In this document: positions 1 through 63,840 of the stretch, piece after piece
Layout of the letters: every line of letters starts with the position of its first letter
Numbering within the stretch: the stretch's first letter is position 1
Origin: Candidatus Terraquivivens tikiterensis
GTDB lineage: Archaea > Thermoproteota > Nitrososphaeria_A > Caldarchaeales > Wolframiiraptoraceae
NCBI GenBank assembly: GCA_003056285.1
Contig: NDWU01000003.1
Location: 5,522 to 69,521 of the forward strand
Direction of reading: 5' to 3'
Length of the DNA: 64,000 nucleotides
The notes under the pieces: model-generated
What the model saw: only the letters and a program-made list of their open reading frames with translations
Told to the model about the DNA's origin: nothing
The model's database searches: none
Made by a program: the position numbers and the translations under genes

Positions 1-714
1 TTACTCCTACATCCCAAAATAATTCACGAGAAACCAGTTTACACACCAATACCCACTTTAAACGAGGAAATGTGCGACCATTGCGGAAAATGTGCAAGTT
101 TTTGTCAGTACAACGCCATTTTCGTCGGCTACAAAAAAGTTCTAATTTTTCCAGAGCTTTGCCATGGATGCGGTGGATGCTTTCTCGTCTGCCCCAAAAA
201 GGCTATCGTCGAGGGGAAACATAGGATTGGAACATTAAAGCAAGGTTTCGTCGGAAATTTGGAGCTTGTTTATGGTGAGCTTGAAGTCGGCGAGCCCATG
301 GCTGTCCCATTGATCAGGGAGGTTAAAAGGCACATCGACAAGGGTAGAAACGTCATAATCGACGCACCACCCGGGGCTTCATGTCCGGTTATAGAGACCG
401 CAAAGGGAAGCGACTTCTGCATCCTTGTGAGCGAGCCCACACTGTTTGGTTTATACGATTTAAAAACAACAGTTCAAGTTTTAAGGGACATGAAAATTCC
501 ATTGGGTGTTGTCGTAAACAAGGCTGGTATAGGCGACAGGAAAGTTTACGAGTACTGTAAAGAGGAAGGCATACCAATCCTTCTTGAAATTCCTTTTCAG
601 AGAAAAATTGCTGAGCTTTATTCGAGGGGAATACCGTTCATCCAAGAGATGCAAGAGTGGAAGGAGGAATTCAGAAGGTTATTCGAAGACGTAAAAAGGC
701 TCGCAGGGAAATGA
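1..714 (+). CDS. MinD/CooC-superfamily P-loop ATPase with inserted 2x[4Fe-4S] ferredoxin domain (5' end outside window)
   Basis: Frame 1 is open from nt 1 (LLLHPKIIHEKPVYTPIPTLNEE precedes the Met at 70). Cluster motifs CDHCGKCASFCQYNAI and CHGCGGCFLVCPKKAI are followed by the IIDAPPG...VVNK ATPase half. The Walker A must lie upstream of the window. Confidence 0.8.
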   Translation, partial: LLLHPKIIHEKPVYTPIPTLNEEMCDHCGKCASFCQYNAIFVGYKKVLIFPELCHGCGGCFLVCPKKAIVEGKHRIGTLKQGFVGNLELVYGELEVGEPMAVPLIREVKRHIDKGRNVIIDAPPGASCPVIETAKGSDFCILVSEPTLFGLYDLKTTVQVLRDMKIPLGVVVNKAGIGDRKVYEYCKEEGIPILLEIPFQRKIAELYSRGIPFIQEMQEWKEEFRRLFEDVKRLAGK

Positions 715-1598
715 GGCAAATAGTTGTTTTGAGCGGTAAGGGTGGAACTGGTAAGACGACAGTATCGGCATCATTTGCCCTTCTAGCAAAGAAAGCCGTT
801 GTAGCCGACTGTGATGTGGACGTGCCGGACATGCATCTGCTTTCGCACCCAGAAATCGTAAAAAAGCAGGAATTTAGGGGCTCAAAGTTGGCGATAATCG
901 ATGGTTCAAAGTGCATAAAATGCGGTTTGTGTCAAAGGGAGTGCAGGTTTGAAGCTATAACGCAAAACTTTACCGTGGACCCGTTCTCGTGCGAGGGGTG
1001 TGGTGTTTGCACAGTTGTCTGCCCAGTTAATGCTATTACGTTAATGGAGCGCATTTCCGGATATGTCTACATTTCAAAGACGAAATATGGGTTTTTGGTT
1101 CATGCTAGGCTCAACCCAGGCGAGGCAAACTCTGGAAAACTTGTAACAATGGTTAGGCTAAATGCCAAATTGTTAGCTGAGGAAGAGAACATCGAGATCA
1201 TAATAATAGACGGTCCTCCTGGAATCGGTTGCCCTGTGATAGCTTCAGTTACAGGTGTTGATGCTGGTTTGGTAGTTACTGAACCTACGATGTCAGGCAT
1301 TCACGATTTGAAGAGGGTGCTAAGACTTTTGGCGCACTTTAATGTTAGGCCGTTTGTGTGCGTGAACATGTACGATTTAAACGTGAACAATGCAGAGAAG
1401 ATCTTGGATTTCTGCAAAGAAAATGGCATAAAAGTCGTTGGCAAAATACCTTTTGATGCAAAAGTTACGGAGGCCATGGTTGCTGAAAAAACGATAATAG
1501 AGTATTCTCCAGAAAGCGATGCTGCAAAAGAGATAGTGGCCATATGGAATCGGATTTGCGAAGAGCTAGGGTTGGGTGAGGCGTCTGCAAAGCATTAG
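711..1598 (+). CDS. MinD/CooC-superfamily P-loop ATPase with 2x[4Fe-4S] ferredoxin domain (paralog of upstream gene)
   Basis: ATG 711 overlaps the upstream stop (ATGA). Walker A LSGKGGTGKTT, ferredoxin motifs CIKCGLCQRECRF and CEGCGVCTVVCPVNAI, and IIIDGPPGIGCPV. Confidence 0.85.
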   Translation: MRQIVVLSGKGGTGKTTVSASFALLAKKAVVADCDVDVPDMHLLSHPEIVKKQEFRGSKLAIIDGSKCIKCGLCQRECRFEAITQNFTVDPFSCEGCGVCTVVCPVNAITLMERISGYVYISKTKYGFLVHARLNPGEANSGKLVTMVRLNAKLLAEEENIEIIIIDGPPGIGCPVIASVTGVDAGLVVTEPTMSGIHDLKRVLRLLAHFNVRPFVCVNMYDLNVNNAEKILDFCKENGIKVVGKIPFDAKVTEAMVAEKTIIEYSPESDAAKEIVAIWNRICEELGLGEASAKH

Positions 1599-2550
1599 GG
1601 AGCTTGTCTTTGGGCCTGTCCCCTCGAGACGTCTAGGAAGAAGTTTGGGGATAAACAACATACCACCAAAAACATGCTCATATTCATGCGTCTACTGTCA
1701 GTTGGGAAGGACAACGAACATGCTTGTTGACAGGCAAGCCTTTTATAACCCTCGAGACATCTTGATGGAGGTTAGAAGAAAAGTCGGTGAGGCTGCTCTA
1801 AGAAAGGAAAGGATAGATTATCTTGCTTTCGTGCCTGATGGGGAACCCACGTTGGATATCAACATAGGCGAAGAAATATCCCTTCTAAGGAAGATCGGCA
1901 TTCCGGTAGCCGTTATAACAAACTCTTCCCTTCTTTGGCAAGAGAGCGTTAGGGAGGGCTTGCTGGATGCCGATTTCGTTTCGTTGAAGGTGGATGCTGT
2001 CAGCCAAGACCTATGGAAGCACGTGAACAGACCTCATAAAAGTTTGAGCTTGGATATTGTTTTAGATGGCATAAAGGAATTTGCGAAGGAATTTAGAGGA
2101 ACCATCGTAAGCGAAACGATGCTAATCGACGGTTTAAAGTACGATGGATGGCTTGAGGAGGTCGCAGAGTTTTTGAAGGGGCTGAAAAGGCTGGACAAAG
2201 CTTACGTTTCTATACCAACGAGGCCACCAGCAGAGAAATGGGTTAAACCGGCTAAAGAGGAGGTCTTAAACTTCGCCTTTCAAATTTTCTCTGAAAAGCT
2301 GGGAAGCGACCGGGTGGAGTTCTTGATAAGCTATGAAGGGAACGCATTTGCCTTTACCGGAAATCTTGAAGAGGATTTGCTGGGCATAACGGCTGTGCAT
2401 CCTATGCGGAAAGAAGCATTGGAAGAATTCCTAAAGAAGGCAAACACAAATTGGCACATCGTTGAGAAACTTTTAGAAGAGAACAAGCTCATAGAGCTTG
2501 AGTATGAAGGAAATAAATATTACATGAGAAAGTTGCCGGGTAAGTATTGA
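1576..2550 (+). CDS. radical SAM domain protein (COG0731-like Fe-S oxidoreductase)
   Basis: N-terminal FGPVPSRRLGRSLGINN followed by the CSYSCVYCQLG CxxxCxxC motif. GTG start overlaps the end of the preceding ATPase gene by 23 nt; the start codon is uncertain. Confidence 0.75.
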   Translation: MRRLQSIRELVFGPVPSRRLGRSLGINNIPPKTCSYSCVYCQLGRTTNMLVDRQAFYNPRDILMEVRRKVGEAALRKERIDYLAFVPDGEPTLDINIGEEISLLRKIGIPVAVITNSSLLWQESVREGLLDADFVSLKVDAVSQDLWKHVNRPHKSLSLDIVLDGIKEFAKEFRGTIVSETMLIDGLKYDGWLEEVAEFLKGLKRLDKAYVSIPTRPPAEKWVKPAKEEVLNFAFQIFSEKLGSDRVEFLISYEGNAFAFTGNLEEDLLGITAVHPMRKEALEEFLKKANTNWHIVEKLLEENKLIELEYEGNKYYMRKLPGKY

Positions 2551-4661: not shown

Positions 4662-5753
4662 TCACCTAGTAACCTCATAGCTTGAGACGAGCTCAAAAAG
4701 CTCCCTTGCTTTCTCGTTGCTCTCAAAATACCTCCTAATCGGCTCCAGTATCCTGTCTAGGGCATCCACGACCGCTCTTTTTAAGTCTAGCGGATGGATT
4801 CTGCCGAGCTCATAATCTTTCTTTAAGTGTTCGAAGTCCTCGTATAGCACGTCCCCTCCGTACTTTTGCGGCCTCTCTACGTAAACCCTACCCAGCTTTG
4901 GGAAGATTATGTACTTGCAGTATTCTATTATTGGGTTTGACTTTGTGTCTTTTGGCGGACAGTAAGCTTTCATCACTTTTTCCTCGAGCACTTCTCTAGT
5001 GTCGTGTACGTATATGCTTGTCTCCGGCACACTCTTGCTCATCTTGGAGCTTATCTGCATGTCTATCTCCGCATCATCGTCAAAACCCTTTGCCCCAGCG
5101 GGCCCTTTAAGGCCCATGAGCATGTGGTGGTGGACCGCTACTGGCTTAGATAGCCCGAGCTTCGGACCGATCTCCCTTGCAAGCATGTTCGCCCTTCTCT
5201 GGTCAAGGCCAAGCTGGCATATGTCAACCCCAAGATAGAATATGTCGGCGACCTGCATGGCCGGATAGAATAGCTGGGCAGCCTCCTGGAGCTCGCCCTC
5301 CTGCCTACCCATTATCGGGAGGCACCTGAGGAACCTCTTGAGCGTTGCCTCCTTCGCGACGCTTATGACCAACTTCCAGTAATCTCTATCGGCTGCAATG
5401 TCGCTGGCCCAAACGAGCTCCACTTTGTTGACGTCTATACCAGAGGCTTTCCAAACCTCGATTAAGTATTCGCCAACCTTCCTTATCTTCTCTAGGTCGC
5501 CGCCCATCTTCTTGTTTACCATCGCATGCCAGTCGGCGAGCAGCAGTTTGAATCTGCAACCGGCTTCCAGCATGTCCTTCAGCTTTATGGCCCTCAGTAT
5601 CGCGAAAGGTATGTGCGCAAGGCCGCTTGGCTCGAACCCATCATAGGCCACGGGCCTATCGTTCGTCTCCAAGAGTTGCCTCAGTTCCTGAAGCGTTATC
5701 ACCTCTTCTGTAGGCGACCTAGTAATAAGCTCCATCCTCGTCTCTACGTCCAA
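4662..5753 (-). CDS. tyrS: tyrosyl-tRNA synthetase (archaeal type)
   Basis: Collinear with M. jannaschii TyrRS: GFEPSGLAHI, LLADWHA, YPAMQVADIFYLGVD, KMSKS, AYCPP, HPLDLK. Confidence 0.9.
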   Translation of the reverse strand: MDVETRMELITRSPTEEVITLQELRQLLETNDRPVAYDGFEPSGLAHIPFAILRAIKLKDMLEAGCRFKLLLADWHAMVNKKMGGDLEKIRKVGEYLIEVWKASGIDVNKVELVWASDIAADRDYWKLVISVAKEATLKRFLRCLPIMGRQEGELQEAAQLFYPAMQVADIFYLGVDICQLGLDQRRANMLAREIGPKLGLSKPVAVHHHMLMGLKGPAGAKGFDDDAEIDMQISSKMSKSVPETSIYVHDTREVLEEKVMKAYCPPKDTKSNPIIEYCKYIIFPKLGRVYVERPQKYGGDVLYEDFEHLKKDYELGRIHPLDLKRAVVDALDRILEPIRRYFESNEKARELFELVSSYEVTR

Positions 5754-5930: not shown

Positions 5931-7619
5931 TTACTGCACCCTCTTAAGCAAGCTGCGGACTGCTTGGAGCCCTATCTCGACTGCGCTTACGGGCATCTTT
6001 ATGTCAAAGGCTTCCAAGACCTCAGGGCTTACCTCGCCAATTATCCCTATACCGACACCGTCGAGCTTTATCTCTGCAACCCTTCCCTTGATGAAGCTGG
6101 CATGCTCGACCTCCCTTAGACTCCATCCCTTTAAGCCGAGGCTCCTCAGCAACTCCTCCAATACTGACTTAACCTCTGAGAAGGATGCGTCCGCATGGGA
6201 GCTCACGAGTGCCAACCTAGCCTCTCTCCTAACCCGCTCCCCAATGGATTCGTCGACCACCAAGACATCGCCTATTTCAAAAAGCCTGTGCGGGTAAGGG
6301 TTGTGCTTGTTCGTCGCCAGGTTGTATAGCAGACCTGGAAGGAGCCACGTTCTTAGTATGTCGTACTCCGTCGATACTGGGTTAAGAACCCTTACTGGGT
6401 TCTGAGGCTCAACCCTCATCCAAAGATAGTCCCTCGTGCTGTTGGAGAGCGTGAAGTTTATTACCTCCGTAAAGCCGAGCCCGAACATGATTTCCCTACA
6501 AACGTCCTCGAAATTTGTATCTGGGTGAAGTTTACCGAAGCCAGGAGTTTTAGGAACGACGGGCTGGAGGTTGTTGTACCCGAGGCCTATCGCTACCTCC
6601 TCCACAAGATCCACGGGGTGCATGACGTCAAGCCTGTACGGAGGGACCTCGGCGTAGATCACGTCACCCTTGACCTTCCTGACACCAACCCTTGACCTTT
6701 TTAACGCCCTGATAGCCTCCTTCACGGATATGTTAAGGCCGAGCAATTCGTTGGCATACTTTAGCTTGAGCTTCCAGACCCTCGCCCTTAGGTCTGGCGT
6801 AACCATCCTCATGTCATCATAAACTACCCTAACCTGTCTGATCCTTCCGCCGATATCCGCCAGCGCCGTCGTCAGTATGTTCAAAGCTCCGCTTACGGCT
6901 TCTAGGTCTGTACCGGTCACGTCTATGAAGAGCGTATCCGTCCCTTCCGTCAGCTCCGTCAGGGCTGAGTTTATTATGGGCGGGAGCGAGAGCACCTCGC
7001 CGCGCGAGTCCATGATGACCGGAAACAGCCCGGTTCCGGCCACTATATGGCCATACTTACGGCCGACCTCATGCTCCTCGACTATCTCCTGCGGCGTCAT
7101 CCTCCTGAAGCCCTTGAGGGGTACAAAGCTTACCCCGTCCCCCTTTACCGCCCTGTAGAATATCGGCGGCTTGATGACCTTGGCGTTGTGCAGGCCTATC
7201 GCTACCTTCTTCCTATTCCTTCCTACGACCCAGTGCAGGTCTTCCTGCATGGCTATCAGTTCCTCGATCTCTTCAGCGGACAGGTTAAGTCCCTCGACGT
7301 AAGCGGCGACGACCCAAGGCCTGACAGCCTTAACGCTCTCCTCAACCTTCACGTACGTCTTGGGAGGGAGTACTGTGAACTTCGGAATGCCTGTCTCCGT
7401 TCCAAGAATGCCCTTGATTGCCCTGGCAAGACCCGCCGGGCTGGAAAAATCCGGCCTGTTTGGGTTGTACTCAACCTTGACGTAGTCCACCCCGACCTCC
7501 TCGACGGCCACACCGATGTCCGTTAGGACGTCGACGAGCTCGTCTTTATCGAGCCTTTGGCTTAGAAGCTTGAAAAGCCTATCCAGCTTCAGGTTAAGTA
7601 TCGGCACTTCCTCACTCAC
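5931..7619 (-). CDS. pheT: phenylalanyl-tRNA synthetase beta subunit (archaeal)
   Basis: 562 aa with archaeal PheT layout (B3/4 and B5 domains plus a C-terminal class II-like core). pheS lies nearby. Confidence 0.9.
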   Translation of the reverse strand: MSEEVPILNLKLDRLFKLLSQRLDKDELVDVLTDIGVAVEEVGVDYVKVEYNPNRPDFSSPAGLARAIKGILGTETGIPKFTVLPPKTYVKVEESVKAVRPWVVAAYVEGLNLSAEEIEELIAMQEDLHWVVGRNRKKVAIGLHNAKVIKPPIFYRAVKGDGVSFVPLKGFRRMTPQEIVEEHEVGRKYGHIVAGTGLFPVIMDSRGEVLSLPPIINSALTELTEGTDTLFIDVTGTDLEAVSGALNILTTALADIGGRIRQVRVVYDDMRMVTPDLRARVWKLKLKYANELLGLNISVKEAIRALKRSRVGVRKVKGDVIYAEVPPYRLDVMHPVDLVEEVAIGLGYNNLQPVVPKTPGFGKLHPDTNFEDVCREIMFGLGFTEVINFTLSNSTRDYLWMRVEPQNPVRVLNPVSTEYDILRTWLLPGLLYNLATNKHNPYPHRLFEIGDVLVVDESIGERVRREARLALVSSHADASFSEVKSVLEELLRSLGLKGWSLREVEHASFIKGRVAEIKLDGVGIGIIGEVSPEVLEAFDIKMPVSAVEIGLQAVRSLLKRVQ

Positions 7620-10573: not shown

Positions 10574-12136
10574 TCACAGCCTTCCACTCTTCAGGTCCAC
10601 GTAAACTCTAGCCATGCCCCTTATCCAGTTAAGGTCGTTGGCGTATAGCGTTCTTATGTCATCAAGCCCGAAGAGCGCCATCGCCAACCTCTCTAGCCCA
10701 CCGCCCCATGCCAGCACAGGGTGCTTGACGCCCAGCGGAGCCGTAACCTCTGGCCTGAACATGCCCATGCCAAAGAGCTCGAGCCACTCGCGCTTCTCGG
10801 GCATGTAGACGATAACTTCCGCGGAGGGTTCTGTGTAGGGGAAGTAGGATGGCCTGAACGTTATCTCCTTAAGGCTTATTCTGCTACAGAACTCCTTTAT
10901 GAGGCCCATCAGCTCCCTGAAATTACACCTTTCATCCATTATTATCCCCTCTACCTGGTGGAACTCTGCTAGGTGCTTCCAGTCTACCTTTTCGTTCCTG
11001 TATATCCTGTCGACCGAGAATACCTTTACGGGCGGTTCGCGGTGGTATGCGAGGTGCCTTATCGTCGTGGCGGTCGTATGCGTCCTGAGTACCAGCTTGC
11101 TGGCTTCGTGTTCACTCCACTTGTACCTCCACCCTTTGGATCCGGTGTCGCCGCCAAACTCATGCGACCGCTTTACCGGCTCGATAAGCCCCTCTGGAAG
11201 CTTTCCGGTACTTGGATACGCCAAGTAAAAGGTATCGTGCATCTCTCTAGCCGGATGGTCCTGAGGCTGGAATAGGGCATCGAAGTTCCAGAACGCGAGC
11301 TCGACGAGCGGCCCCTTAATCTCCTCGAAGCCCAGCTCCACAAAAGCATCCTTTATCAGCCTGATTAGCGTTACGAGTGGATGCCGCTTTGCGGCAAAGA
11401 TCGGCTTTGTGGGCGCATGAACGTCGAAGGGGCTTAGCTCAAAATCGCGCCACCTACCTGTTATCAAAAGCTCGGGCGTCAGCTTAGTGATCGTGTGCTG
11501 CCCCACCTCCAGCTCTTCCAGCGGTATGCTGCGGGCTAACTCCGTCGGGACCATGATGTGCTTCCTGTCCTCGTACAACTCTACTACCTTTGGCCTGCCG
11601 GAAAGCTCAAGGCATGCTTCCAAAAGCCTCGGCGATAGGTCCTCAACCCTTAAGTCGCCCTTTCCAAGCTGCTCCAGCAGCTCCTCCTCGGCTGTAACGT
11701 CTGGTACGTCGGCTACGATTCTAACAACTTTGGAACCGTTGCCGCCTTCGACCGCTATCCAACCCTTCTTCTTCGCCCACATTATGGCTACAGCCAGCTC
11801 GCCTTTCAAGGACTGTTCCTTCTCAAGCTCATCCATGCTCGCAAGACCTCCCAACCTTCTCAGGACACAAACCAGCCTCCTTTCTGGAAGGCCGTTCTTC
11901 AGGTAATCCCTCCCGACAGCCCCTATCCTCGCTACCTTAACCGAAACCTCTTCTATCTCGACCAGGCCTTTCTCCTTAAGCCAGAGCGATGCCTTCGCCA
12001 CGGCGCCCTCGTCCCTCGATATCGCGCTCGCGACCTCGCCGTACTCCATAGGCCTACCGCTATCTATCAAAGCCCGAAGTATGAGCTTCTCGAGCCAATG
12101 GAGCCTCGGCCTGAGCATCCCTATCCTGTCCGTCAA
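10574..12136 (-). CDS. pheS: phenylalanyl-tRNA synthetase alpha subunit (archaeal)
   Basis: 520 aa. N-terminal winged-helix repeats plus class II core (FQPQDHPAREMHDTFY, LRTHTT, GFGMG-like GMGMFRPEV, AWGGGLERL). Confidence 0.9.
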   Translation of the reverse strand: MTDRIGMLRPRLHWLEKLILRALIDSGRPMEYGEVASAISRDEGAVAKASLWLKEKGLVEIEEVSVKVARIGAVGRDYLKNGLPERRLVCVLRRLGGLASMDELEKEQSLKGELAVAIMWAKKKGWIAVEGGNGSKVVRIVADVPDVTAEEELLEQLGKGDLRVEDLSPRLLEACLELSGRPKVVELYEDRKHIMVPTELARSIPLEELEVGQHTITKLTPELLITGRWRDFELSPFDVHAPTKPIFAAKRHPLVTLIRLIKDAFVELGFEEIKGPLVELAFWNFDALFQPQDHPAREMHDTFYLAYPSTGKLPEGLIEPVKRSHEFGGDTGSKGWRYKWSEHEASKLVLRTHTTATTIRHLAYHREPPVKVFSVDRIYRNEKVDWKHLAEFHQVEGIIMDERCNFRELMGLIKEFCSRISLKEITFRPSYFPYTEPSAEVIVYMPEKREWLELFGMGMFRPEVTAPLGVKHPVLAWGGGLERLAMALFGLDDIRTLYANDLNWIRGMARVYVDLKSGRL

Positions 12137-14001: not shown

Positions 14002-14104
14002 GCGGGGGTTGCCAAGCCTGGTCAACGGCGCAGGGCTTAGGTTCCGTAGAGGATGGGATACCCTGTCCCGTAGGGGTTCGTGGGTTCAAATCCCACCCCC
14101 CGCA
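14002..14104 (+). tRNA. tRNA-Leu(TAG) with an 18-nt intron after position 37
   Basis: Acceptor GCGGGGG/CCCCCGC, D arm GCC-AAGCCTGGTCAAC-GGC, anticodon stem CAGGG/CCCTG with loop CTTAGG[TTCCGTAGAGGATGGGAT]A, long variable arm TCCCGTAGGGGTTC, T arm GTGGG-TTCAAAT-CCCAC, discriminator A. Intron about 14042-14059. Confidence 0.9.
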
Positions 14105-16326: not shown

Positions 16327-16504
16327 GGAGGAACCTGAGTGGGCTTCAGGTACTTTCCCGAAGCCATTCCGCTAACGTTAAGCACGATAGGCTGCCCAAT
16401 TTTACACGTAAGCTATCCACGGCTTTAGGCCTGTGCTTCCTGCCTCTAAGATGAAGCCTGCACTCTATATAGGATTTTCGCACTTCTCCATCAACCCTAT
16501 TTAC

Positions 16505-16744
16505 CAAATTCGGCGAGAAGGCCCGCATCTTTTATTAGTGGGATGAATCGTCGATAAAAGCCTTGAGCGGGTCGCTCACATGTGGCCTGGACGTCCAAAG
16601 GCCCGAATAAGGCTCCGGGCCGAAAAGGGAGGGGCTCAGGCAGGCGGGCATGGGCTGATTTGGCACAGCCCAGAACTCGGTATGATAAGGGGCTAAGCCC
16701 TGAAGAACCGAGAATCCCACGGCTAAAGTCCGTGGGAGTGTCAA
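16505..16744 (+). mobile_element. IS200/IS605-derived MITE, copy A (240 nt)
   Basis: TTAC|CAAATTCGGCGAGAAGGCCCGC...ATCCCACGGCTAAAGTCCGTGGGAGTGTCAA|G. Termini, both hairpins and internal blocks are shared with copies B, C, D and G. Confidence 0.7.
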
Positions 16745-16846
16745 GAGGGACTGTATAAACCTTATTCGCTCCAATCCAATCCATAAAAGTTGCGGGATTA
16801 AGCGTTGTTGTTATGAAACTGTAAGCATTTTATCCGAAAAGAGTTT

Positions 16847-17041
16847 TTAGGTAGCATTGCGCTGCCATGGAGGCCCTCCGCCCCTTCCTTTTCTTCCTCC
16901 CGGCGGACCCTTGTCTAGCCTGTGAATCATCATGGCCGGTGCCCCGCATCTAGGACAATTAACAGGTTTCGGAGCTCCTTGAGGGATCTCGATCACGTAT
17001 CCGCAGTTGCTGCACTGGAAGCTCTTCGTCGGTAAGCCCAT
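16847..17041 (-). CDS. zinc-ribbon protein with Gly/Pro/Arg-rich tail
   Basis: CSNCGY...CPRCGA ribbon followed by GPPGGRKGRGGGPPWQRN. The ATG directly abuts the TAG of the upstream gene. Confidence 0.6.
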   Translation of the reverse strand: MGLPTKSFQCSNCGYVIEIPQGAPKPVNCPRCGAPAMMIHRLDKGPPGGRKGRGGGPPWQRNAT

Positions 17042-17299
17042 CTAAGGTCCCTGTCTTCCTTTCTCGAGCATGCTCCTCAGCTCCTTTATCCTAGCTTCAA
17101 CCTCTGCTATCTCCTCTTCTATGCTTGCCTTTTCATCCTCCAGCTCTCTCTTGTAGTCCTCGAGGGCTGCCAGCTCATCTTCTAGGGATTGCGGGATCGG
17201 TGGATAAGCGTAAGGAAATGGTGGCGGATACGCATACGGATATAGAGGTGGGTAACCCCACCAACGTTGATATCTTCTACCTCTTCTCGGCCAAGCCAT
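17042..17299 (-). CDS. DUF5320-like small protein: aromatic/Pro-rich N-terminus plus C-terminal coiled coil
   Basis: 85 aa MAWPRRGRRYQRWWGYPPLYPYAYPPPFPYAYPPIP followed by heptad-like EDELAALEDYKRELEDEKASIEEEIAEVEARIKELRSMLEK. GGTGAG sits 8 nt before the ATG, 7 nt after the upstream TGA. Confidence 0.6.
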   Translation of the reverse strand: MAWPRRGRRYQRWWGYPPLYPYAYPPPFPYAYPPIPQSLEDELAALEDYKRELEDEKASIEEEIAEVEARIKELRSMLEKGRQGP

Positions 17300-17306
17300 T
17301 TCTAAC

Positions 17307-17585
17307 TCACCAGTATCCGTATAGCGGATACCAGTACCACGGGTACCAGTAGCCAAAGCCGTATGCCATGTACGGCCATGCGTATCCGTATAGCGGATAT
17401 GCCCACCACCATCTTGGAAGCCATGGGAATCTAGCGCAAACCCAAGGATTGTATAGGTAGCTCCACAACCATCCGAACCCTCTGCCGAAGCCAAACAGCC
17501 ATCCAGGCCTCTGCCATGGTGGCAAATAGCTAAACGGGCCCCTTCCAGGCCAAGGACCTGCCATACCTCTCCAACCCCACGCCAT
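17307..17585 (-). CDS. Trp/Tyr/Gly/Pro-rich small basic protein (DUF5320 N-terminal-like, no coiled coil)
   Basis: 92 aa from MAWGWRG (GGTGA SD upstream): 17 W, 14 Y, 6 F, 14 G, 13 P, 6 R, and no D/E/K/H. The N-terminus parallels the downstream gene (MAWGWRG vs MAWPRRG). Confidence 0.55.
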   Translation of the reverse strand: MAWGWRGMAGPWPGRGPFSYLPPWQRPGWLFGFGRGFGWLWSYLYNPWVCARFPWLPRWWWAYPLYGYAWPYMAYGFGYWYPWYWYPLYGYW

Positions 17586-17672
17586 GCTTTCACCAATTAT
17601 GTGAATATTCACAAAAATATAAATCTTCCGTTAAATGTATAGTGGGCGTACAGTAGTGGAGGAATTCTGCTA
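17586..17672. promoter_or_regulatory. divergent promoter region between the aromatic-protein cassette and the DUF134-like gene
   Basis: 87-bp AT-rich spacer with TATA-like AAAATATAAAT and TTAAATGTATA boxes. GGAGG lies 10 nt before ATG 17673. Confidence 0.5.
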
Positions 17673-18017
17673 ATGTGGCGGCATAGGCATAGGTACGGCA
17701 TGAGGGGGAGGCTTCCGAAGCCTATCAGGTTAGGCTCTGTTCCACCAGTAAGCAGCTTCGTCCCCCATCCGCCGAGGGATGCAGAACCAATACTTCTAGA
17801 AATAGCGGAGCTTGAGGCTTTCCGGTTGGTGGACCTAGAAGGGTTGTTTCAGGACGAGGCCGGGCGAAGGATGGGGGTCTCTAGGGGAACCGTTTGGAGG
17901 CTTGTTCAAAGAGCAAGAAAGAAAGTCGCTCAAGCGCTTAGCGAGGGAAGGCCTATACAAATCGTCCTCTACGATGCTAAGGACGAGGGGCAACCGTTGT
18001 CGGGTAGTTATAGTTAG
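17673..18017 (+). CDS. DUF134/UPF0251-family putative DNA-binding protein (sigma-70 region-4-like HTH)
   Basis: Basic N-terminus (RHRHRYGMRGRLPKP), then LEIAELEAFRLVDLEGLFQDEAGRRMGVSRGTVWRLVQRARKKVAQAL, the layout I recognise for DUF134. Confidence 0.7.
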   Translation: MWRHRHRYGMRGRLPKPIRLGSVPPVSSFVPHPPRDAEPILLEIAELEAFRLVDLEGLFQDEAGRRMGVSRGTVWRLVQRARKKVAQALSEGRPIQIVLYDAKDEGQPLSGSYS

Positions 18018-50900: not shown

Positions 50901-51749
50901 ATGGGAACGGTTAAGGCAACAAAAGCAGTAAATATTCCCTACCAGCCTAGCGAAATGGTTAACTTATTGTTTAGATGTCGGTGTTAAAAGAGGCATTGCT
51001 GGAAGATTTAAGCTTACGAAACTTGTCTATAATGGACTTCAAAAATACGGCTAGCATTCATGCATGCCTTCTCTGCCGTAGAGATAACCACGGCCATTCT
51101 CAAGCGTTCAGAATTGTTGAAGACTTTCTAGTTTTCCCAGTTAAGCCCAGACAGTTCATCCGCATACAGCTTCATAAGAGAGCTTTAGAAGTTCTTAGAA
51201 ATGTTAAGCTTGGCTCAATAACGATTACGCCCAATACCATCCACACAGCCTATTCACGTATGGTTGGGGTTAATGAGCTTAAAGGATGGGTTGCCATAGA
51301 TTTGACACTCCCACGCCTAAAGGGTGTGGGCCTTCTCGCCGAATTTGGTAAAATCCAAGAGGTTTCAGTTAGAGGCAAAGAGCTTAAGCGCAGGCTTAGC
51401 AGCTGGTTGTTTGGAAAACTTCTTCGCATGGTAAACTACAAGTGCTTTTTCTTCTGCGTCAAAGTTAAGCCTGTCAGCCCAAAAGGTTCAAGCTCAACAT
51501 GCCCAACATGTGGTCAAAACTTGAAGAATACCCGGGTGGGCAGGTCAATTGTGAAAAGGAAAAAGGGACACGGTAGCCTGTTTAAACCTTATTAAAAGCG
51601 CAGATGCGGGTTTCGGCTCAACCCGAAAGCCCCTTGTATGTAGCCATGAACCCGGCCCTAACGACTTATCACAAGATGGGGAGAGGTGGGTGAGCAAAAG
51701 ATGGGAAGGTAACTCTTTATCTCCCGAAGAGTTGCCAGAACCCGGATAA
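50901..51749 (+). pseudogene. TnpB (IS200/IS605 OrfB) pseudogene: frameshifts, large internal deletion, nested MITE
   Basis: MGTVKATKAVNIPYQPSEMVNLL.. start, ITITPNTIHTAY..GWVAIDL (RuvC-I Asp), then a jump to LSSWLFGKLLRMVNYKC..VSPKGSSSTCPTCGQ, with the tail DTVACLNLIKSADAGFGSTRKP in another frame. Confidence 0.65.
51302..51347 (-). mobile_element. IS200/IS605-derived MITE, minimal 46-nt copy B nested in the TnpB pseudogene
   Basis: Reverse strand TTAC|CAAATTCGGCGAGAAGGCCCACACCCTTTAGGCGTGGGAGTGTCAA|A: left end joined to right end through one hybrid hairpin. Confidence 0.65.
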
Positions 51750-58323: not shown

Positions 58324-58442
58324 TTGACACTCCACGGCCGAAGCCATGGGATTCTCGTACACAGCCCCTCAGCGCTCTGAAGCACATCTGCGGCAGCGTT
58401 CATCCCATCACTAAAGGGCGTGGGGCTTTCTCGCAGAATTTG
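58324..58442 (-). mobile_element. IS200/IS605-derived MITE, copy G (119 nt)
   Basis: Reverse strand TCAC|CAAATTCTGCGAGAAAGCCCCACGCCCTTTAGTGATGGGATGAAC...GAGAATCCCATGGCTTCGGCCGTGGAGTGTCAA|G. It retains a TnpB C-terminus-like reading DGMNAAADVLQ. Confidence 0.7.
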
Positions 58443-58627
58443 GTGAAGCCACTCTGGTCCGATACGGCCAAGCCTGACGGTCCAGCACCAGCGAGCAAGA
58501 ATAGAACGGGCACGGTACCTCTTCACAAAGAAGTTCAAAGAACTCGATAGGGAAGGTTTATTTTGATGCACCTATAAAGTGTGGACAAAAGACGAGTTGA
58601 GCAGTATTGCCAAAGCTATTGAAGCCG

Positions 58628-63729: not shown

Positions 63730-63840
63730 GGGCCCGTAGCTCAGCCAGGTAGGGGATTCCGCCTAGAGCGGTGGGCTCTTAGGTTTGCTTAAAACGGAGT
63801 AACCCATAGGCCGTGGGTTCGAATCCCACCGGGCCCGCCA
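63730..63840 (+). tRNA. tRNA-Lys(CTT) with two introns (D-loop and canonical 37/38) and encoded CCA
   Basis: Acceptor GGGCCCG/CGGGCCC, D arm GCTC-AGCCAGGTAG[GGGATTCCGCCTAG]AGC, anticodon stem GTGGG/CCCAT with loop CTCTTA[GGTTTGCTTAAAACGGAGTA]A, T arm GTGGG-TTCGAAT-CCCAC, then G and CCA. Introns at about 63753-63766 and 63782-63801. Confidence 0.85.

What the first reader, a model, noticed from the sequence alone, without database searches (positions are those of the whole stretch)
17307..17585. 92-aa protein that is 40% Trp/Tyr/Phe with no acidic residue, and a paralogous N-terminus in the next gene
Seen: counting from MAWGWRG the product has 17 Trp (18%), 14 Tyr, 6 Phe, 14 Gly, 13 Pro and 6 Arg, with no Asp, Glu, Lys, His, Thr or Ile. 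It ends in repeats such as YGYAWPYMAYGFGYWYPWYWYPLYGYW. The downstream gene starts with the related MAWPRRGRRYQRWWGYPPLYPYAYPP, so the two look like a tandem duplication, or a split, of one aromatic-rich gene. Trp is normally the rarest residue, so a chance ORF with this composition in a 50% GC genome is unlikely. The alternative frame over the same DNA (the 184-aa tracked ORF) has no such bias upstream of 17299. Inference: sticker-rich sequences like this are typical of self-associating, membrane-interface or cofactor/aromatic-ligand binding proteins.
Basis: seen in the sequence. Interest (0 to 1): 0.7.

Follow-up and report, generated by a model that had tools for sequence, protein, structure and literature searches.

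The report
Tryptophan-rich half of split DUF5320 pair
This small archaeal gene really encodes a conserved protein that is 40% aromatic (18% tryptophan); it is one half of a duplicated, split member of the uncharacterised DUF5320 family, sits behind a conserved operator-bearing promoter next to metal-cofactor genes, and its biochemical job is still unknown.

Summary
Window 17307-17585 (-) encodes a 92-aa protein with 17 Trp, 14 Tyr and 6 Phe and no D/E/K/H/T/I, which chance does not give (P about 1e-16).

It is a real gene. There are 268 database homologues and 318 genome relatives, mostly Bathyarchaeia and Hadarchaeota. The core has dN/dS of 0.01-0.11, and an SD-like GGTGA precedes the ATG.

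Two near-invariant motifs are followed by a tail that keeps its W/Y/P/G composition but not its sequence. AlphaFold predicts disorder.

The protein is the coiled-coil-less paralogue of DUF5320 (PF17253). The next gene, 17042-17299, is the complementary paralogue: a short W/R and PPxY-rich arm plus a 46-residue helix. In 32 of 34 evaluable genomes an aromatic-tail gene is followed by such a coiled-coil gene. None of 43 fused genes has one. The two forms differ by one block bounded by a shared RWW(A/G)YP repeat.

The usual operon is g1, g2, a Zn-ribbon gene and a NifX-like gene. It lies beside a divergent DUF134 regulator, behind a TATA box plus TGTG-N6-CACA palindrome (67 of 77 loci). The window lacks the NifX-like gene.

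Function is unknown. My best guess is a disordered adaptor in the NifX-like/MinD Fe-S system. This is a new variant of a known family.

The parts
17307..17585 (-). g1: 92-aa Trp/Tyr/Gly/Pro/Arg-rich protein. It is the coiled-coil-less, aromatic-tailed paralogue of DUF5320 (stop codon 17307-17309).
   Evidence: Translation and composition. 268 homologues. Core dN/dS 0.01-0.11. AlphaFold pLDDT 48, disordered.
17499..17558 (-). Motif 1, residues 10-29: GPWPGRGPFSYLPPWQRPGW. It is the near-invariant hallmark of the archaeal branch of the family.
   Evidence: Invariant columns P13 G14 G16 F18 P22 P23 W24 R26 P27 in a 39-sequence alignment spanning several phyla. The genome scan used the pattern GPF[SR][YDH]LPPW and found 318 relatives.
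17394..17438 (-). Motif 2, residues 50-64: CARFPWLPRWWWAYP. It holds the protein's only Cys.
   Evidence: C.R[FVLY]PW is present in 102 of 120 homologues, and 43 of 50 aromatic-tail members have exactly one Cys. R52 P54 W55 L56 P57 R58 W60 W61 P64 are at least 90% conserved.
17310..17393 (-). Aromatic low-complexity tail, residues 65-92 (LYGYAWPYMAYGFGYWYPWYWYPLYGYW). Its composition is conserved but its sequence is not.
   Evidence: Tail pN 0.25-0.54 against core pN 0.02-0.17. The tails of the aromatic-tail class almost entirely lack D/E/K. 46 of 50 such proteins end in W or Y.
17313..17330 (.). Copy 1 of an exact 18-nt direct repeat (GTATCCGTATAGCGGATA on the + strand). It encodes YPLYGY.
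   Evidence: the repeat finder family D2, 100% identity, spacing 69 nt.
17382..17399 (.). Copy 2 of the 18-nt direct repeat. It shows the tail grew by internal duplication.
17042..17299 (-). g2: 85-aa paralogue. It has a W/R-rich N-terminus, a Tyr/Pro arm with PPxY-like motifs, and an acidic coiled-coil helix (DUF5320 C-half).
   Evidence: PF17253 at 21.7 bits, E=4.6e-4, below the 27-bit cut-off. hhalign 97.8% to the helix of fused relatives. Orthologue alignment A2. Net charge +5 for the N-half and -8 for the C-half.
17054..17191 (-). g2 helix, residues 37-82.
   Evidence: AlphaFold single-sequence model: helix 37-82 with pLDDT 91-95.
16847..17041 (-). g3: 64-aa CxxC...CxxC zinc-ribbon protein with a KGPPGGRKGRGGGPPWQR tail. 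Its ATG directly abuts the g2 stop codon. It was not called in the public gene calls of this contig.
   Evidence: ORF list. Zn_ribbon_8 and rubredoxin-like hits below threshold. 22 foreign loci carry an orthologue at E 1e-6 to 1e-37, usually right after g2. The counterpart in L087 is listed as PF27353 MJ0401.
17590..17594 (-). SD-like GGTGA, 4 nt upstream of the g1 ATG.
   Evidence: Sequence. (A/G)GAGGTGA is conserved at this position in orthologous loci.
17307..17311 (-). SD-like GGTGA for g2. It overlaps the g1 stop codon, with a 7-nt spacer to the g2 ATG.
   Evidence: Sequence read directly.
17600..17613 (.). Perfect 14-bp palindrome TGTGAATATTCACA between the TATA box and the g1 start. Putative operator.
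   Evidence: It is the only TGTG-N6-CACA in the 64 kb. The same palindrome lies within 150 nt upstream of the g1-family gene in 67 of 77 loci, against 9 hits in 626 kb elsewhere. Consensus.
17614..17624 (-). TATA-like box (ATTTATATTTT on the - strand), shared by the divergent g1 and DUF134 promoters.
   Evidence: Sequence. TTTATATATTT starts 12 nt before the palindrome in 28 related loci.
17673..18017 (+). Divergent DUF134 (UPF0251) HTH protein. It has a sigma-70 region-4-like domain and an Arg-rich N-terminal arm. Putative regulator of the operon. A public gene call starts it at 17700.
   Evidence: PF02001 at 76.4 bits. NCBIfam PRK04217 at 93 bits. Adjacent to the g1-family gene in 64 of 80 foreign loci. 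It has no conserved Cys cluster.

Best explanation
SHOWN: 17307-17585 (-) is a genuine protein-coding gene (g1) under strong purifying selection.
- It belongs to the archaeal branch of the uncharacterised DUF5320 family.
- It keeps the family's G/R/aromatic N-terminal motifs (GPWPGRGPFSYLPPWQRPGW and CARFPWLPRWWWAYP).
- It has lost the C-terminal coiled coil and carries a Trp/Tyr/Pro/Gly low-complexity tail instead.
- The next gene (g2) is its tandem paralogue. g2 keeps only a remnant of motif 2 (RWWGYPP), a Tyr/Pro arm and the coiled coil.
- g1 plus g2 replace the single fused gene of other genomes. The two arrangements are mutually exclusive and differ by one block bounded by the duplicated RWW(A/G)YP segment.
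- g1, g2 and a Zn-ribbon gene (g3) are tightly spaced (7 nt and 0 nt).

INFERRED, about 0.8: g1 and g2 act together as a heteromeric equivalent of one DUF5320 protein, with the g2 helix providing oligomerisation.

INFERRED, about 0.6: the genes form one operon whose promoter is repressed at the TGTG-N6-CACA palindrome, which lies between the TATA box and the start. The likely repressor is the divergently encoded DUF134 HTH protein.

INFERRED, about 0.3: the pair is an intrinsically disordered, cationic adaptor or scaffold of the NifX-like / MinD-ParA(+ferredoxin) / NifU metallocluster-handling gene set that surrounds it in relatives.
- The invariant motifs and the single Cys would dock a conserved partner.
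- The Arg-rich N-terminal peptide shared by g1 and g2 would contact the P-loop ATPases, as the charged N-termini of ParA-partner proteins such as McdB are proposed to do.
- The aromatic tail would supply multivalent pi-pi and cation-pi contacts for self-association.
For: Coding and conservation:
- 268 homologues and 318 genome relatives.
- Core pS 0.47-0.87 against pN 0.02-0.17; omega is 0.01-0.11 where computable.
- SD-like GGTGA precedes both ATGs.

Family link:
- Fused relatives with the same motifs score 30-46 bits on PF17253.
- An aromatic-tail protein in L060 carries the canonical DUF5320 N-terminus (58.8 bits) followed by motif 1.
- The g2 helix matches the helix of fused relatives at hhalign 97.8%.

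Split pair:
- 32 of 34 evaluable aromatic-tail genes have a separate coiled-coil gene just downstream, 1 has it upstream and 1 has none. None of 43 fused genes has one.
- The DNA alignment of split and fused loci shows one block indel bounded by TGGTGGGCWTATCC.
- The 5' 33-45 nt of g1 and g2 are identical in L011, L031 and L033.

Structure:
- g1 has pLDDT 48 with no secondary structure to speak of.
- g2 has a helix at 37-82 with pLDDT above 90.
- Charges are complementary: g1 +6, g2 helix half -8, g3 +7.

Regulation:
- The palindrome is unique in the window.
- It is present upstream of the g1-family gene in 67 of 77 loci, against 9 hits per 626 kb elsewhere.
- It sits at a fixed 12-nt offset from the TATA box, and a second copy lies 24 nt downstream in 19 loci.
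- DUF134 is adjacent in 64 of 80 loci.

Context:
- A NifX-like gene lies within 5 kb in 71 of 80 loci, mostly directly downstream on the same strand.
- MinD+Fer4 ATPases occur in 43 of 80 loci, Mrp/ParA in 27 of 80 and a radical SAM gene in 13 of 80.
- The window itself has MinD+Fer4 and radical SAM genes at 1-2550.

McdB analogy, from the literature only: PMC8359340.
Against: - No experiment or publication addresses DUF5320 or DUF134 function. COG1433 NifX-like proteins are themselves uncharacterised.
- In this window the operon lacks the NifX-like gene, and the MinD-type ATPases are 15 kb away. So g1-g3 persist without an adjacent partner gene.
- MinD/ParA association (43 of 80) is weaker than association with DUF134 or NifX-like genes.
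- No physical interaction was tested. Only single chains could be modelled.
- That DUF134 binds the palindrome rests only on co-location.
- Extreme aromatic content is unlike McdB, which has low hydrophobicity.
Confidence: 0.5

Rival explanations
1. g1/g2 (and g3) are co-regulators of the DUF134 transcription factor rather than pathway components. They would bind DUF134, which has no sensor domain, and modulate its DNA binding. The single conserved Cys or the aromatic surface would act as the sensor. This would give an autoregulatory loop like sigma/anti-sigma pairs.
For: - DUF134 is only about 110 aa, an Arg-rich arm plus a sigma-70 region-4-like HTH, and has no conserved Cys cluster.
- It is the most constant neighbour of the family after the NifX-like gene (64 of 80 loci).
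- The operator sits exactly at the promoter of the g1-family gene and was found almost nowhere else in about 626 kb of flanks.
- In this window the module DUF134 + g1-g3 persists without an adjacent NifX-like gene.
- DUF134, g1 and g2 all start with similar W/R-rich peptides.
Against: - Nothing beyond adjacency links the proteins.
- The usual operon continues into a NifX-like gene, which suggests structural rather than regulatory products.
- No precedent is known to me for an aromatic disordered anti-repressor.
Confidence: 0.15
2. g1 is a nucleic-acid-binding protein. Arg/Gly plus stacking aromatics, as in RGG/RG and aromatic-rich RNA-binding regions, would act with the RG-tailed Zn-ribbon protein g3 on RNA or DNA.
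For: - g1 has net charge +6 and no acidic residue; g3 has net charge +7 and a GRKGRGGG tail.
- Zn ribbons and RG tails are common in nucleic-acid binders (my own knowledge).
- g1 is predicted disordered.
Against: - Motif conservation is far stricter than is usual for RG-type binders.
- The neighbourhood is metal-cofactor genes, not RNA metabolism.
- The fused relatives are acidic overall in their helix half.
Confidence: 0.1
3. g1 is a membrane-interface or membrane-active peptide, like the Trp/Pro/Arg-rich antimicrobial peptides indolicidin and tritrpticin, whose sequences resemble RFPWLPRWWW.
For: Composition: Trp, Tyr and Arg favour membrane interfaces (my own knowledge). The protein is cationic and has no acidic residue.
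Against: - There is no signal peptide, transmembrane segment, exporter or immunity gene nearby.
- The core is near-invariant across phyla, the opposite of arms-race evolution.
- It is obligatorily paired with a cytoplasmic-type coiled-coil paralogue.
- There are no defence-family hits and no viral relatives.
Confidence: 0.05
4. g1 is a precursor peptide (RiPP-like) whose aromatic residues are cross-linked by the radical SAM enzyme of the neighbouring cluster, as in cyclophane-forming (triceptide) or darobactin-type systems.
For: - Repeated aromatic-x-x units lie in a variable C-terminal region behind a conserved N-terminal region.
- A radical SAM gene belongs to the wider cluster (window 1576-2550; L083).
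Against: - The radical SAM homologue lies within 5 kb in only 13 of 80 loci and has no SPASM/twitch hit.
- There is no protease or exporter.
- The fused relatives replace the tail by a coiled coil, which a RiPP core would not tolerate.
Confidence: 0.03
5. This is not a functional gene. It would be a chance ORF, the shadow of the overlapping 184-aa frame, or a pseudogene fragment left by a frameshift in a fused DUF5320 gene.
For: - There is no Pfam or NCBIfam hit for g1.
- The 184-aa ORF overlaps it.
Against: - The composition is impossible by chance.
- Core omega is 0.01-0.11.
- The two-gene arrangement, with its own SD and ATG, is conserved in 32 of 34 evaluable genomes spanning Bathyarchaeia and Hadarchaeota.
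- The overlapping frame is closed within 0-27 nt upstream of g2 in most orthologues.
- The spacing between g1 and g2 is in frame in only about a third of loci, so no readthrough or frameshift product is conserved.
Confidence: 0.01

Closest known systems
Pfam PF17253, DUF5320 (family of unknown function, bacteria and archaea; G/R-rich N-terminus plus C-terminal coiled coil)
   Same: - g1 shares motifs 1 and 2 with archaeal proteins that pass the Pfam threshold.
- An aromatic-tail relative (L060) carries the canonical DUF5320 N-terminus at 58.8 bits.
- g2 carries the family's helix.
- The neighbourhood is the same: DUF134, NifX-like and MinD+Fer4 genes.
   Different: - g1 has no coiled coil and no canonical N-terminal module, so the Pfam model does not see it.
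- It carries a 28-residue Trp/Tyr/Pro/Gly tail instead.
- The family's two halves are encoded by two tandem genes.
- Family membership says nothing about function, which is unknown.
McdB, the partner protein of the ParA-type ATPase McdA in carboxysome positioning (PMC8359340)
   Same: These are resemblances in how it may work, not homology.
- Both are small, compositionally biased and predicted disordered, with a charged N-terminus.
- Both have an aromatic residue at the C-terminus. Trp is invariant in McdB; 30 of 50 aromatic-tail DUF5320 members end in W and 16 of 50 in Y.
- Both exist with and without a coiled coil, and two paralogues occur in some genomes.
- Both are associated with ParA/MinD-family ATPase genes.
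   Different: - There is no sequence similarity.
- McdB has low hydrophobicity and is not aromatic-rich.
- No microcompartment genes are present here.
- The ATPases here carry ferredoxin inserts and sit with NifX-like and NifU genes.
- In this window they are 15 kb away.
Aromatic/Arg 'sticker' low-complexity domains of phase-separating proteins (FUS-like [G/S]Y[G/S] and RGG regions; LARKS segments)
   Same: The tail is Gly/Tyr/aromatic-rich with Arg. Its composition is conserved and its sequence is not. The protein is predicted disordered.
   Different: Aromatic density is far higher, with roughly every second tail residue aromatic. Trp rather than Tyr/Phe dominates. Polar spacers (Ser, Gln, Asn) are almost absent. 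The setting is prokaryotic. Two strictly conserved linear motifs precede the tail.
Trp/Pro/Arg-rich antimicrobial peptides (indolicidin ILPWKWPWWPWRR, tritrpticin VRRFPWWWPFLRR; sequences quoted from memory)
   Same: The local sequence RFPWLPRWWW has the same flavour, and the protein is cationic.
   Different: Those are secreted 13-residue eukaryotic host-defence peptides. Here the setting is a cytoplasmic-type operon with no export signal, and the sequence is strictly conserved across phyla.

Membership tests
Pfam DUF5320 (PF17253) | Score at or above the Pfam gathering threshold (27 bits) | tested here: not met
   g1 has no hit at E<=1. g2 scores 21.7 bits, E=4.6e-4. Fused relatives with the same motifs score 29-46 bits. 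An aromatic-tail relative scores 58.8 bits through its N-terminus.
Pfam DUF5320 (PF17253) | Demonstrable homology to accepted members | tested here: met
   phmmer-type hits at E 1e-13 to 1e-20 to proteins pre-annotated PF17253. Motifs 1 and 2 are shared in alignment A1. The g2 helix matches fused members at hhalign 97.8%.
Pfam DUF5320 (PF17253) | C-terminal coiled-coil helix | tested here: not met
   g1 has no helix, pLDDT 48 and no acidic residue. The feature is supplied by g2, which has a helix at 37-82 with pLDDT above 90.
Pfam DUF5320 (PF17253) | Usual gene neighbourhood (DUF134, NifX-like PF02579, MinD/ParA+Fer4). This comes from my own survey, not from the Pfam definition. | tested here: met
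   DUF134 is divergent and adjacent in the window and in 64 of 80 loci. NifX-like genes occur in 71 of 80 loci and MinD+Fer4 in 43 of 80. In the window, MinD+Fer4 lies at 1-1598, and there is no NifX-like gene.
McdB-like ParA-partner proteins | Encoded next to, and interacting with, a cognate ParA/MinD-type ATPase | tested here: inconclusive
   MinD+Fer4 or Mrp/ParA genes lie within 5 kb in 43 and 27 of 80 loci, but 15 kb away in the window. Interaction cannot be tested with these tools.
McdB-like ParA-partner proteins | Charged N-terminus, intrinsic disorder and an invariant C-terminal aromatic residue | tested here: met
   The N-terminus is MAWGWRG(R)G. pLDDT is 48. 46 of 50 aromatic-tail members end in W or Y. 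The features are taken from PMC8359340.
McdB-like ParA-partner proteins | Low hydrophobicity, and association with a cargo such as a microcompartment | tested here: not met
   40% of residues are aromatic. No microcompartment shell genes appear among the annotated neighbours.
WW domain (PF00397) binding PPxY ligands | Profile similarity and a three-stranded sheet fold | tested here: not met
   hhalign of A1 against a 12-sequence WW alignment written from memory gives probability 0.2%. There is no Pfam hit. The AlphaFold model has no strands.
RiPP precursor with radical SAM maturase | Precursor gene adjacent to its maturase (usually SPASM/twitch radical SAM) and to protease or export genes | tested here: not met
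   The radical SAM homologue lies within 5 kb in 13 of 80 loci. It hits only PF04055. No protease or exporter is among the neighbours.

The most novel reading that the evidence does not exclude
The aromatic-tail/coiled-coil DUF5320 pair is a prokaryotic, Trp-driven self-assembling scaffold, either a condensate or an ordered aromatic zipper.

It would be switched on by a dedicated repressor (DUF134). It would concentrate NifX-like cofactor carriers and MinD/Mrp-type Fe-S ATPases to build or traffic a complex metallocluster in strictly anaerobic archaea. That would be a compartment-like organiser for metallocofactor assembly, built from a protein with about 18% tryptophan.
Probability: 0.12. Interest if true: 0.85.

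Novelty: new variant of a known kind. Interest (0 to 1): 0.6.

Why it matters
Composition. Proteins of about 100 residues with 14-20% Trp and no acidic residue, kept under strong purifying selection across several archaeal phyla, are far outside normal protein composition. Trp is the costliest and rarest residue. This makes them a natural test case for how aromatic and Arg 'stickers' work in a prokaryote.

System. The finding gives a handle on a widespread but wholly uncharacterised gene set of anaerobes: DUF134, DUF5320, an MJ0401-type Zn ribbon, NifX-like COG1433 proteins and MinD+ferredoxin ATPases. It now has a defined promoter and operator, a candidate regulator and a predicted heteromer, all directly testable.

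Annotation. Current annotation misses the aromatic-tail subfamily, because Pfam and NCBIfam give no hit. The Zn-ribbon gene was not called in this contig.

Tried and rejected
- WW-domain idea. g1 has LPPW...YLYNP...W..P, and the g2 arm carries near-invariant PPxY. Rejected: hhalign 0.2%, no strands in the model, no Pfam hit.
- Programmed readthrough or frameshift joining g1 and g2. Rejected: the spacer is a multiple of 3 in only about a third of loci, and its length varies from 2 to 33 nt or more.
- The 184-aa overlapping ORF and the 101-aa GTG start. Rejected.
- Structure-based search. Not run, because the g1 model (pLDDT 48) would give meaningless matches. Sequence and profile searches of the PDB found nothing.
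- Defence-system and viral origin. No PADLOC hit beyond coiled-coil and Zn-ribbon noise, and no relative in viral contigs.
- Literature. Searches for DUF5320, DUF134, UPF0251, COG1342, COG1433 and PF02579 gave nothing on function.
- A degraded NifX-like gene downstream of g3 in the window. tblastn found none, and Rfam found nothing at E<=1.
- My crude coiled-coil detector misclassified a few loci (L017, L026, L044, L047). redid the count with tblastn evidence.
Full report
**1.

Window 17307-17585 on the minus strand translates to a 92-residue protein. It has 17 Trp, 14 Tyr, 6 Phe, 14 Gly, 13 Pro and 6 Arg, and no Asp, Glu, Lys, His, Thr or Ile.

The background is the set of long ORFs in the same window, where Trp is 1.05%. 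Against it, the probabilities are 1.6e-16 for the Trp count, 1.2e-16 for the aromatic count and 2.7e-15 for the six missing residue types. No other ORF of at least 60 aa in the window exceeds 6.8% Trp.

The repetitive C-terminus is partly a true DNA duplication. An exact 18-nt repeat (17313-17330 and 17382-17399) encodes YPLYGY twice.

The gene downstream starts 7 nt after the stop and begins MAWPRRGRRYQRWWGYPP.

**2. It is a real, conserved gene**

A search of 5.8 billion proteins returned 268 homologues. The best are 70-92% identical and come from Bathyarchaeia, Jordarchaeum, Nezhaarchaeales, Hydrothermarchaeota and Terraquivivens MAGs. A scan of one genome per species found 318 relatives. 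They are mostly Bathyarchaeia and Hadarchaeota, with some Nitrososphaeria, Nezhaarchaeota, Methanodesulfokora, Thermoplasmata, Methanocellales, Thermococci and Hodarchaeaceae.

Nei-Gojobori comparison with 14 orthologues was done separately for core and tail.
- Residues 1-64: pS 0.47-0.87 and pN 0.02-0.17, so omega is 0.01-0.11 where computable.
- Tail: pN 0.25-0.54.

So the core is under very strong purifying selection in this frame. The tail keeps its composition but not its sequence.

The overlapping 184-aa ORF is not conserved. In most orthologues the g2 frame is closed 0-27 nt upstream of the g2 start.

The start is the ATG at 17585. Most close orthologues begin MAWGW or MGWRG, and a GGTGA/GGAGGTGA Shine-Dalgarno-like element precedes it. 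The public gene calls on the same contig agree for g1 and g2.

**3. Anatomy of the protein**

Alignment of 39 family members and regular-expression counts define three parts.
- Motif 1 is GPWPGRGPFSYLPPWQRPGW. P13, G14, G16, F18, P22, P23, W24, R26 and P27 are invariant.
- Motif 2 is C-A-R-F-P-W-L-P-R-W-W-W-A-Y-P. C.R[FVLY]PW is present in 102 of 120 homologues, and 43 of 50 aromatic-tail members have exactly one Cys.
- The tail is variable and made of W/Y/P/G. It ends in W in 30 of 50 members and in Y in 16 of 50.

The aromatic-tail class averages 13.8% W, 14.3% Y, 18.3% G, 15.5% P and 8.6% R.

AlphaFold2 with this alignment gives mean pLDDT 48 and almost no secondary structure. Confidence rises slightly over the two motifs. 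I read g1 as intrinsically disordered on its own, with two linear motifs that probably fold on a partner.

No solved structure is related by sequence.

**4. Relation to DUF5320, and to the next gene**

About half of the homologues replace the aromatic tail by an acidic coiled coil. These are annotated PF17253, DUF5320, and I confirmed 29-46 bits for several.

g1 itself has no Pfam or NCBIfam hit. One aromatic-tail relative (L060) carries the canonical DUF5320 N-terminus, MPWGDRTGPWGLGPMTGRAAGYCAGY, at 58.8 bits, followed by motif 1 and a WAYPWY-repeat tail. That ties the class to the family.

g2 (17042-17299) scores 21.7 bits on PF17253, just under threshold. Residues 37-82 form one confident helix. 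A profile of 20 g2 orthologues matches the helix of fused relatives at 97.8% probability.

Within the window, direct g1-g2 similarity is weak. BLASTP gives E=18. The best uncorrected match is RWWWAYPLYGY... against RWWGYPPLYPY..., 52% over 25 residues.

**5. The pair is a duplicated, split version of one gene**

I classified the 80 foreign loci.
- 35 carry an aromatic-tail gene. Of the 34 with enough downstream sequence, 32 have a separate coiled-coil gene immediately downstream, one has it upstream and one has none.
- 43 carry a fused gene, and none of them has an extra coiled-coil gene.

A DNA alignment of closely related split loci (L003, L004) and fused loci (L007, L038) shows that they differ by a single block. 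The block comprises the aromatic tail, the stop codon, the spacer and the g2 N-terminus. Its junction falls in the sequence TGGTGGGCWTATCC (RWW[A/G]YP), which occurs once in g1 (end of motif 2) and once in g2. A partial tandem duplication, or unequal recombination between the two copies, therefore interconverts the two forms.

In three Hadarchaeota/Hadesarchaea genomes the first 33-45 nt of g1 and g2 are 100% identical, although the sequence differs between genomes. This points to ongoing gene conversion, or to strong selection for the same N-terminal peptide or 5' mRNA.

The spacer is in frame in only about a third of loci, so no readthrough fusion is conserved.

By Rosetta-stone logic, g1 and g2 most likely act together. 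Their charges are complementary: g1 +6, g2 helix half -8.

**6. Operon and regulation**

The g3 ATG (17041) abuts the g2 stop. g3 is a 64-aa CxxC...CxxC zinc ribbon with a KGPPGGRKGRGGGPPWQR tail. It is conserved in 22 foreign loci, and its counterpart in L087 is listed as PF27353 (MJ0401).

In relatives a NifX-like gene (PF02579) usually follows on the same strand. It is present within 5 kb in 71 of 80 loci. In this window it is absent.

DUF134, a sigma-70 region-4-like HTH protein of about 110 aa, is adjacent in 64 of 80 loci and is usually divergent.

The intergenic region is strikingly conserved across phyla.
- The pattern is TTTATATATTT, one base, then TGTGCAnnnTCACA.
- In 29 loci there is a second palindrome, mostly 24 nt downstream.
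- A strict TGTG-N6-CACA lies within 150 nt upstream of the g1-family gene in 67 of 77 loci.
- Only 9 other occurrences were found in 626 kb of flanking DNA.

The window has one copy, TGTGAATATTCACA at 17600-17613. It is the only one in 64 kb, against 0.33 expected.

The position between the TATA box and the predicted start site is that of a classical archaeal repressor site. DUF134 is the obvious candidate, but that rests on co-location only. DUF134 orthologues have no conserved Cys cluster or ligand domain.

**7. Wider context**

Pfam-annotated neighbourhoods of three relatives contain the following:
- several NifX-like genes;
- two CbiA/ParA ATPases with ferredoxin inserts;
- an Mrp/ParA-type ATPase;
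- NifU_N and a radical SAM gene;
- on the DUF134 side, FmdE, an FecCD/Peripla_BP_2 ABC transporter and NikR_C.

Across 80 loci, MinD+Fer4 is present in 43, Mrp/ParA in 27 and the radical SAM gene in 13. The window carries the MinD+Fer4 pair and the radical SAM gene at 1-2550.

None of these components has an established function outside nitrogenase biology. The COG1433 NifX-like proteins are structural-genomics targets of unknown function. I found no paper on DUF5320 or DUF134 function.

**8. Mechanism: what is shown and what is inferred**

Shown: coding status, family relationship, the split-pair relationship, operon spacing, the conserved promoter and palindrome, and the neighbourhood.

Inferred:
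- g1/g2 form a heteromer (about 0.8).
- The promoter is repressed at the palindrome, probably by DUF134 (about 0.6).
- The pair is a disordered, cationic adaptor or scaffold for the NifX-like/MinD-type metallocluster machinery (about 0.3).

In the adaptor model the motifs and the single Cys make the specific contact. The shared Arg-rich N-terminal peptide contacts the P-loop ATPases. The aromatic tail provides multivalent self-association.

The nearest functional analogy I found is McdB, the disordered partner of a ParA-type ATPase. It has a charged N-terminus and an invariant C-terminal Trp, it occurs with and without a coiled coil, two paralogues occur in some genomes, and it phase-separates in vitro (PMC8359340). 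This is an analogy only. There is no homology, and McdB is not aromatic-rich.

The rivals are given with their tests in the rival section. They are an anti-repressor of DUF134 (0.15), a nucleic-acid binder (0.10), a membrane-active peptide (0.05), a RiPP precursor (0.03) and a non-gene (0.01).

**9. Novelty and score**

The family is a known DUF, so this is not a new kind of system. The following appear to be undescribed and are missed by Pfam and NCBIfam:
- the aromatic-tail, coiled-coil-less subfamily;
- its obligate pairing with a coiled-coil paralogue;
- the recombination that interconverts split and fused forms;
- the phylum-spanning operator.

I rate this a new variant of a known kind, with interest 0.6. 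The composition under such strong constraint is surprising, and the system is now experimentally approachable. No function is established, and no long-standing question is resolved.

Noticed in passing
window 17600-17624; related loci L003-L082, within 150 nt upstream of the g1-family gene: The promoter architecture is conserved across archaeal phyla. It is TTTATATATTT, one base, then the palindrome TGTGCAnnnTCACA, often with a second palindrome (TGTGCATAAGCACA) 24 nt downstream. The palindrome is present in 67 of 77 loci, against 9 hits in 626 kb elsewhere. The window has only the TATA-proximal copy. It resembles the CRP-type half-sites TGTGA/TCACA but with 4-nt rather than 6-nt spacing.
   Followed up: yes
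window 16847-17041 (-): A 64-aa zinc-ribbon gene (g3) with an RG/GPPW tail abuts g2. It was not called in the public gene calls of this contig but is conserved in 22 related loci. Its counterpart in L087 is PF27353 (MJ0401). Motif 1 of g1 is fused to a double zinc ribbon in one database protein (P0159).
   Followed up: partly
window 16330-16846: About 500 nt downstream of g3, where relatives have a NifX-like gene, holds no convincing ORF and no Rfam match. The minus strand folds better than shuffles (z=-2.9; plus strand z=-1.7). A 45-nt element at 16500-16543 recurs at 51309-51352 and 58399-58447. The 51-kb copy lies inside a TnpB/Cas12f TNB-domain fragment (50975-51595). This may be an IS605-family remnant that displaced the NifX-like gene.
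   Followed up: partly
L011 134-166 and 424-456; L031 4941-4982 and 5282-5323; L033 19-63 and 375-419: In three Hadarchaeota/Hadesarchaea genomes the first 33-45 nt of the aromatic-tail gene and of its coiled-coil paralogue are 100% identical, although the sequence differs between genomes. This suggests gene conversion, or selection for an identical N-terminal peptide or 5' mRNA segment.
   Followed up: partly
window 1-2550 (+): Two MinD/ParA-type ATPases with ferredoxin inserts and a radical SAM gene (no SPASM hit) lie here. They are 68-70% identical to the genes next to the DUF5320 operon in L083. In this genome the cluster is 15 kb away from the operon, and its NifU/NifX/Mrp part would lie beyond the window's start.
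   Followed up: partly
window 4662-5753 (-), 5931-7619 (-), 10574-12136 (-): A class I Trp/Tyr-type tRNA synthetase gene and both PheRS subunit genes lie within 5-13 kb of the gene for this W/Y/F-rich protein. This is probably coincidence.
   Followed up: no
window 14002-14104 (+) and 63730-63837 (+): Rfam finds two tRNA genes of 103-108 nt, presumably with introns. ARAGORN in bacterial mode misses them. This supports an archaeal origin.
   Followed up: no
L069 from ~5235, L072 from ~3485, L075 from ~5340 (gene immediately downstream of the aromatic-tail gene): In some Nitrososphaerota and Thermococci loci the downstream partner begins MGYRWRNMYYLTGLPGWMRFGYSPGW, followed by two coiled coils. 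The L075 partner scores 35.3 bits on PF17253 through its coiled coil. The motif LPGW.R.G resembles g1's LPPWQRPGW.
   Followed up: partly
window 17673-17720; L003-L018 DUF134 orthologues: DUF134, g1 and g2 all begin with similar W/R-rich peptides (MWRHRHRYGMRGR, MAWGWRG, MAWPRRGRRY). g3 and at least one NifX-like protein (L083 12709-13116) end in RG/W-rich tails (GRGGGPPWQR, GRGRGWRQ). No explanation.
   Followed up: no
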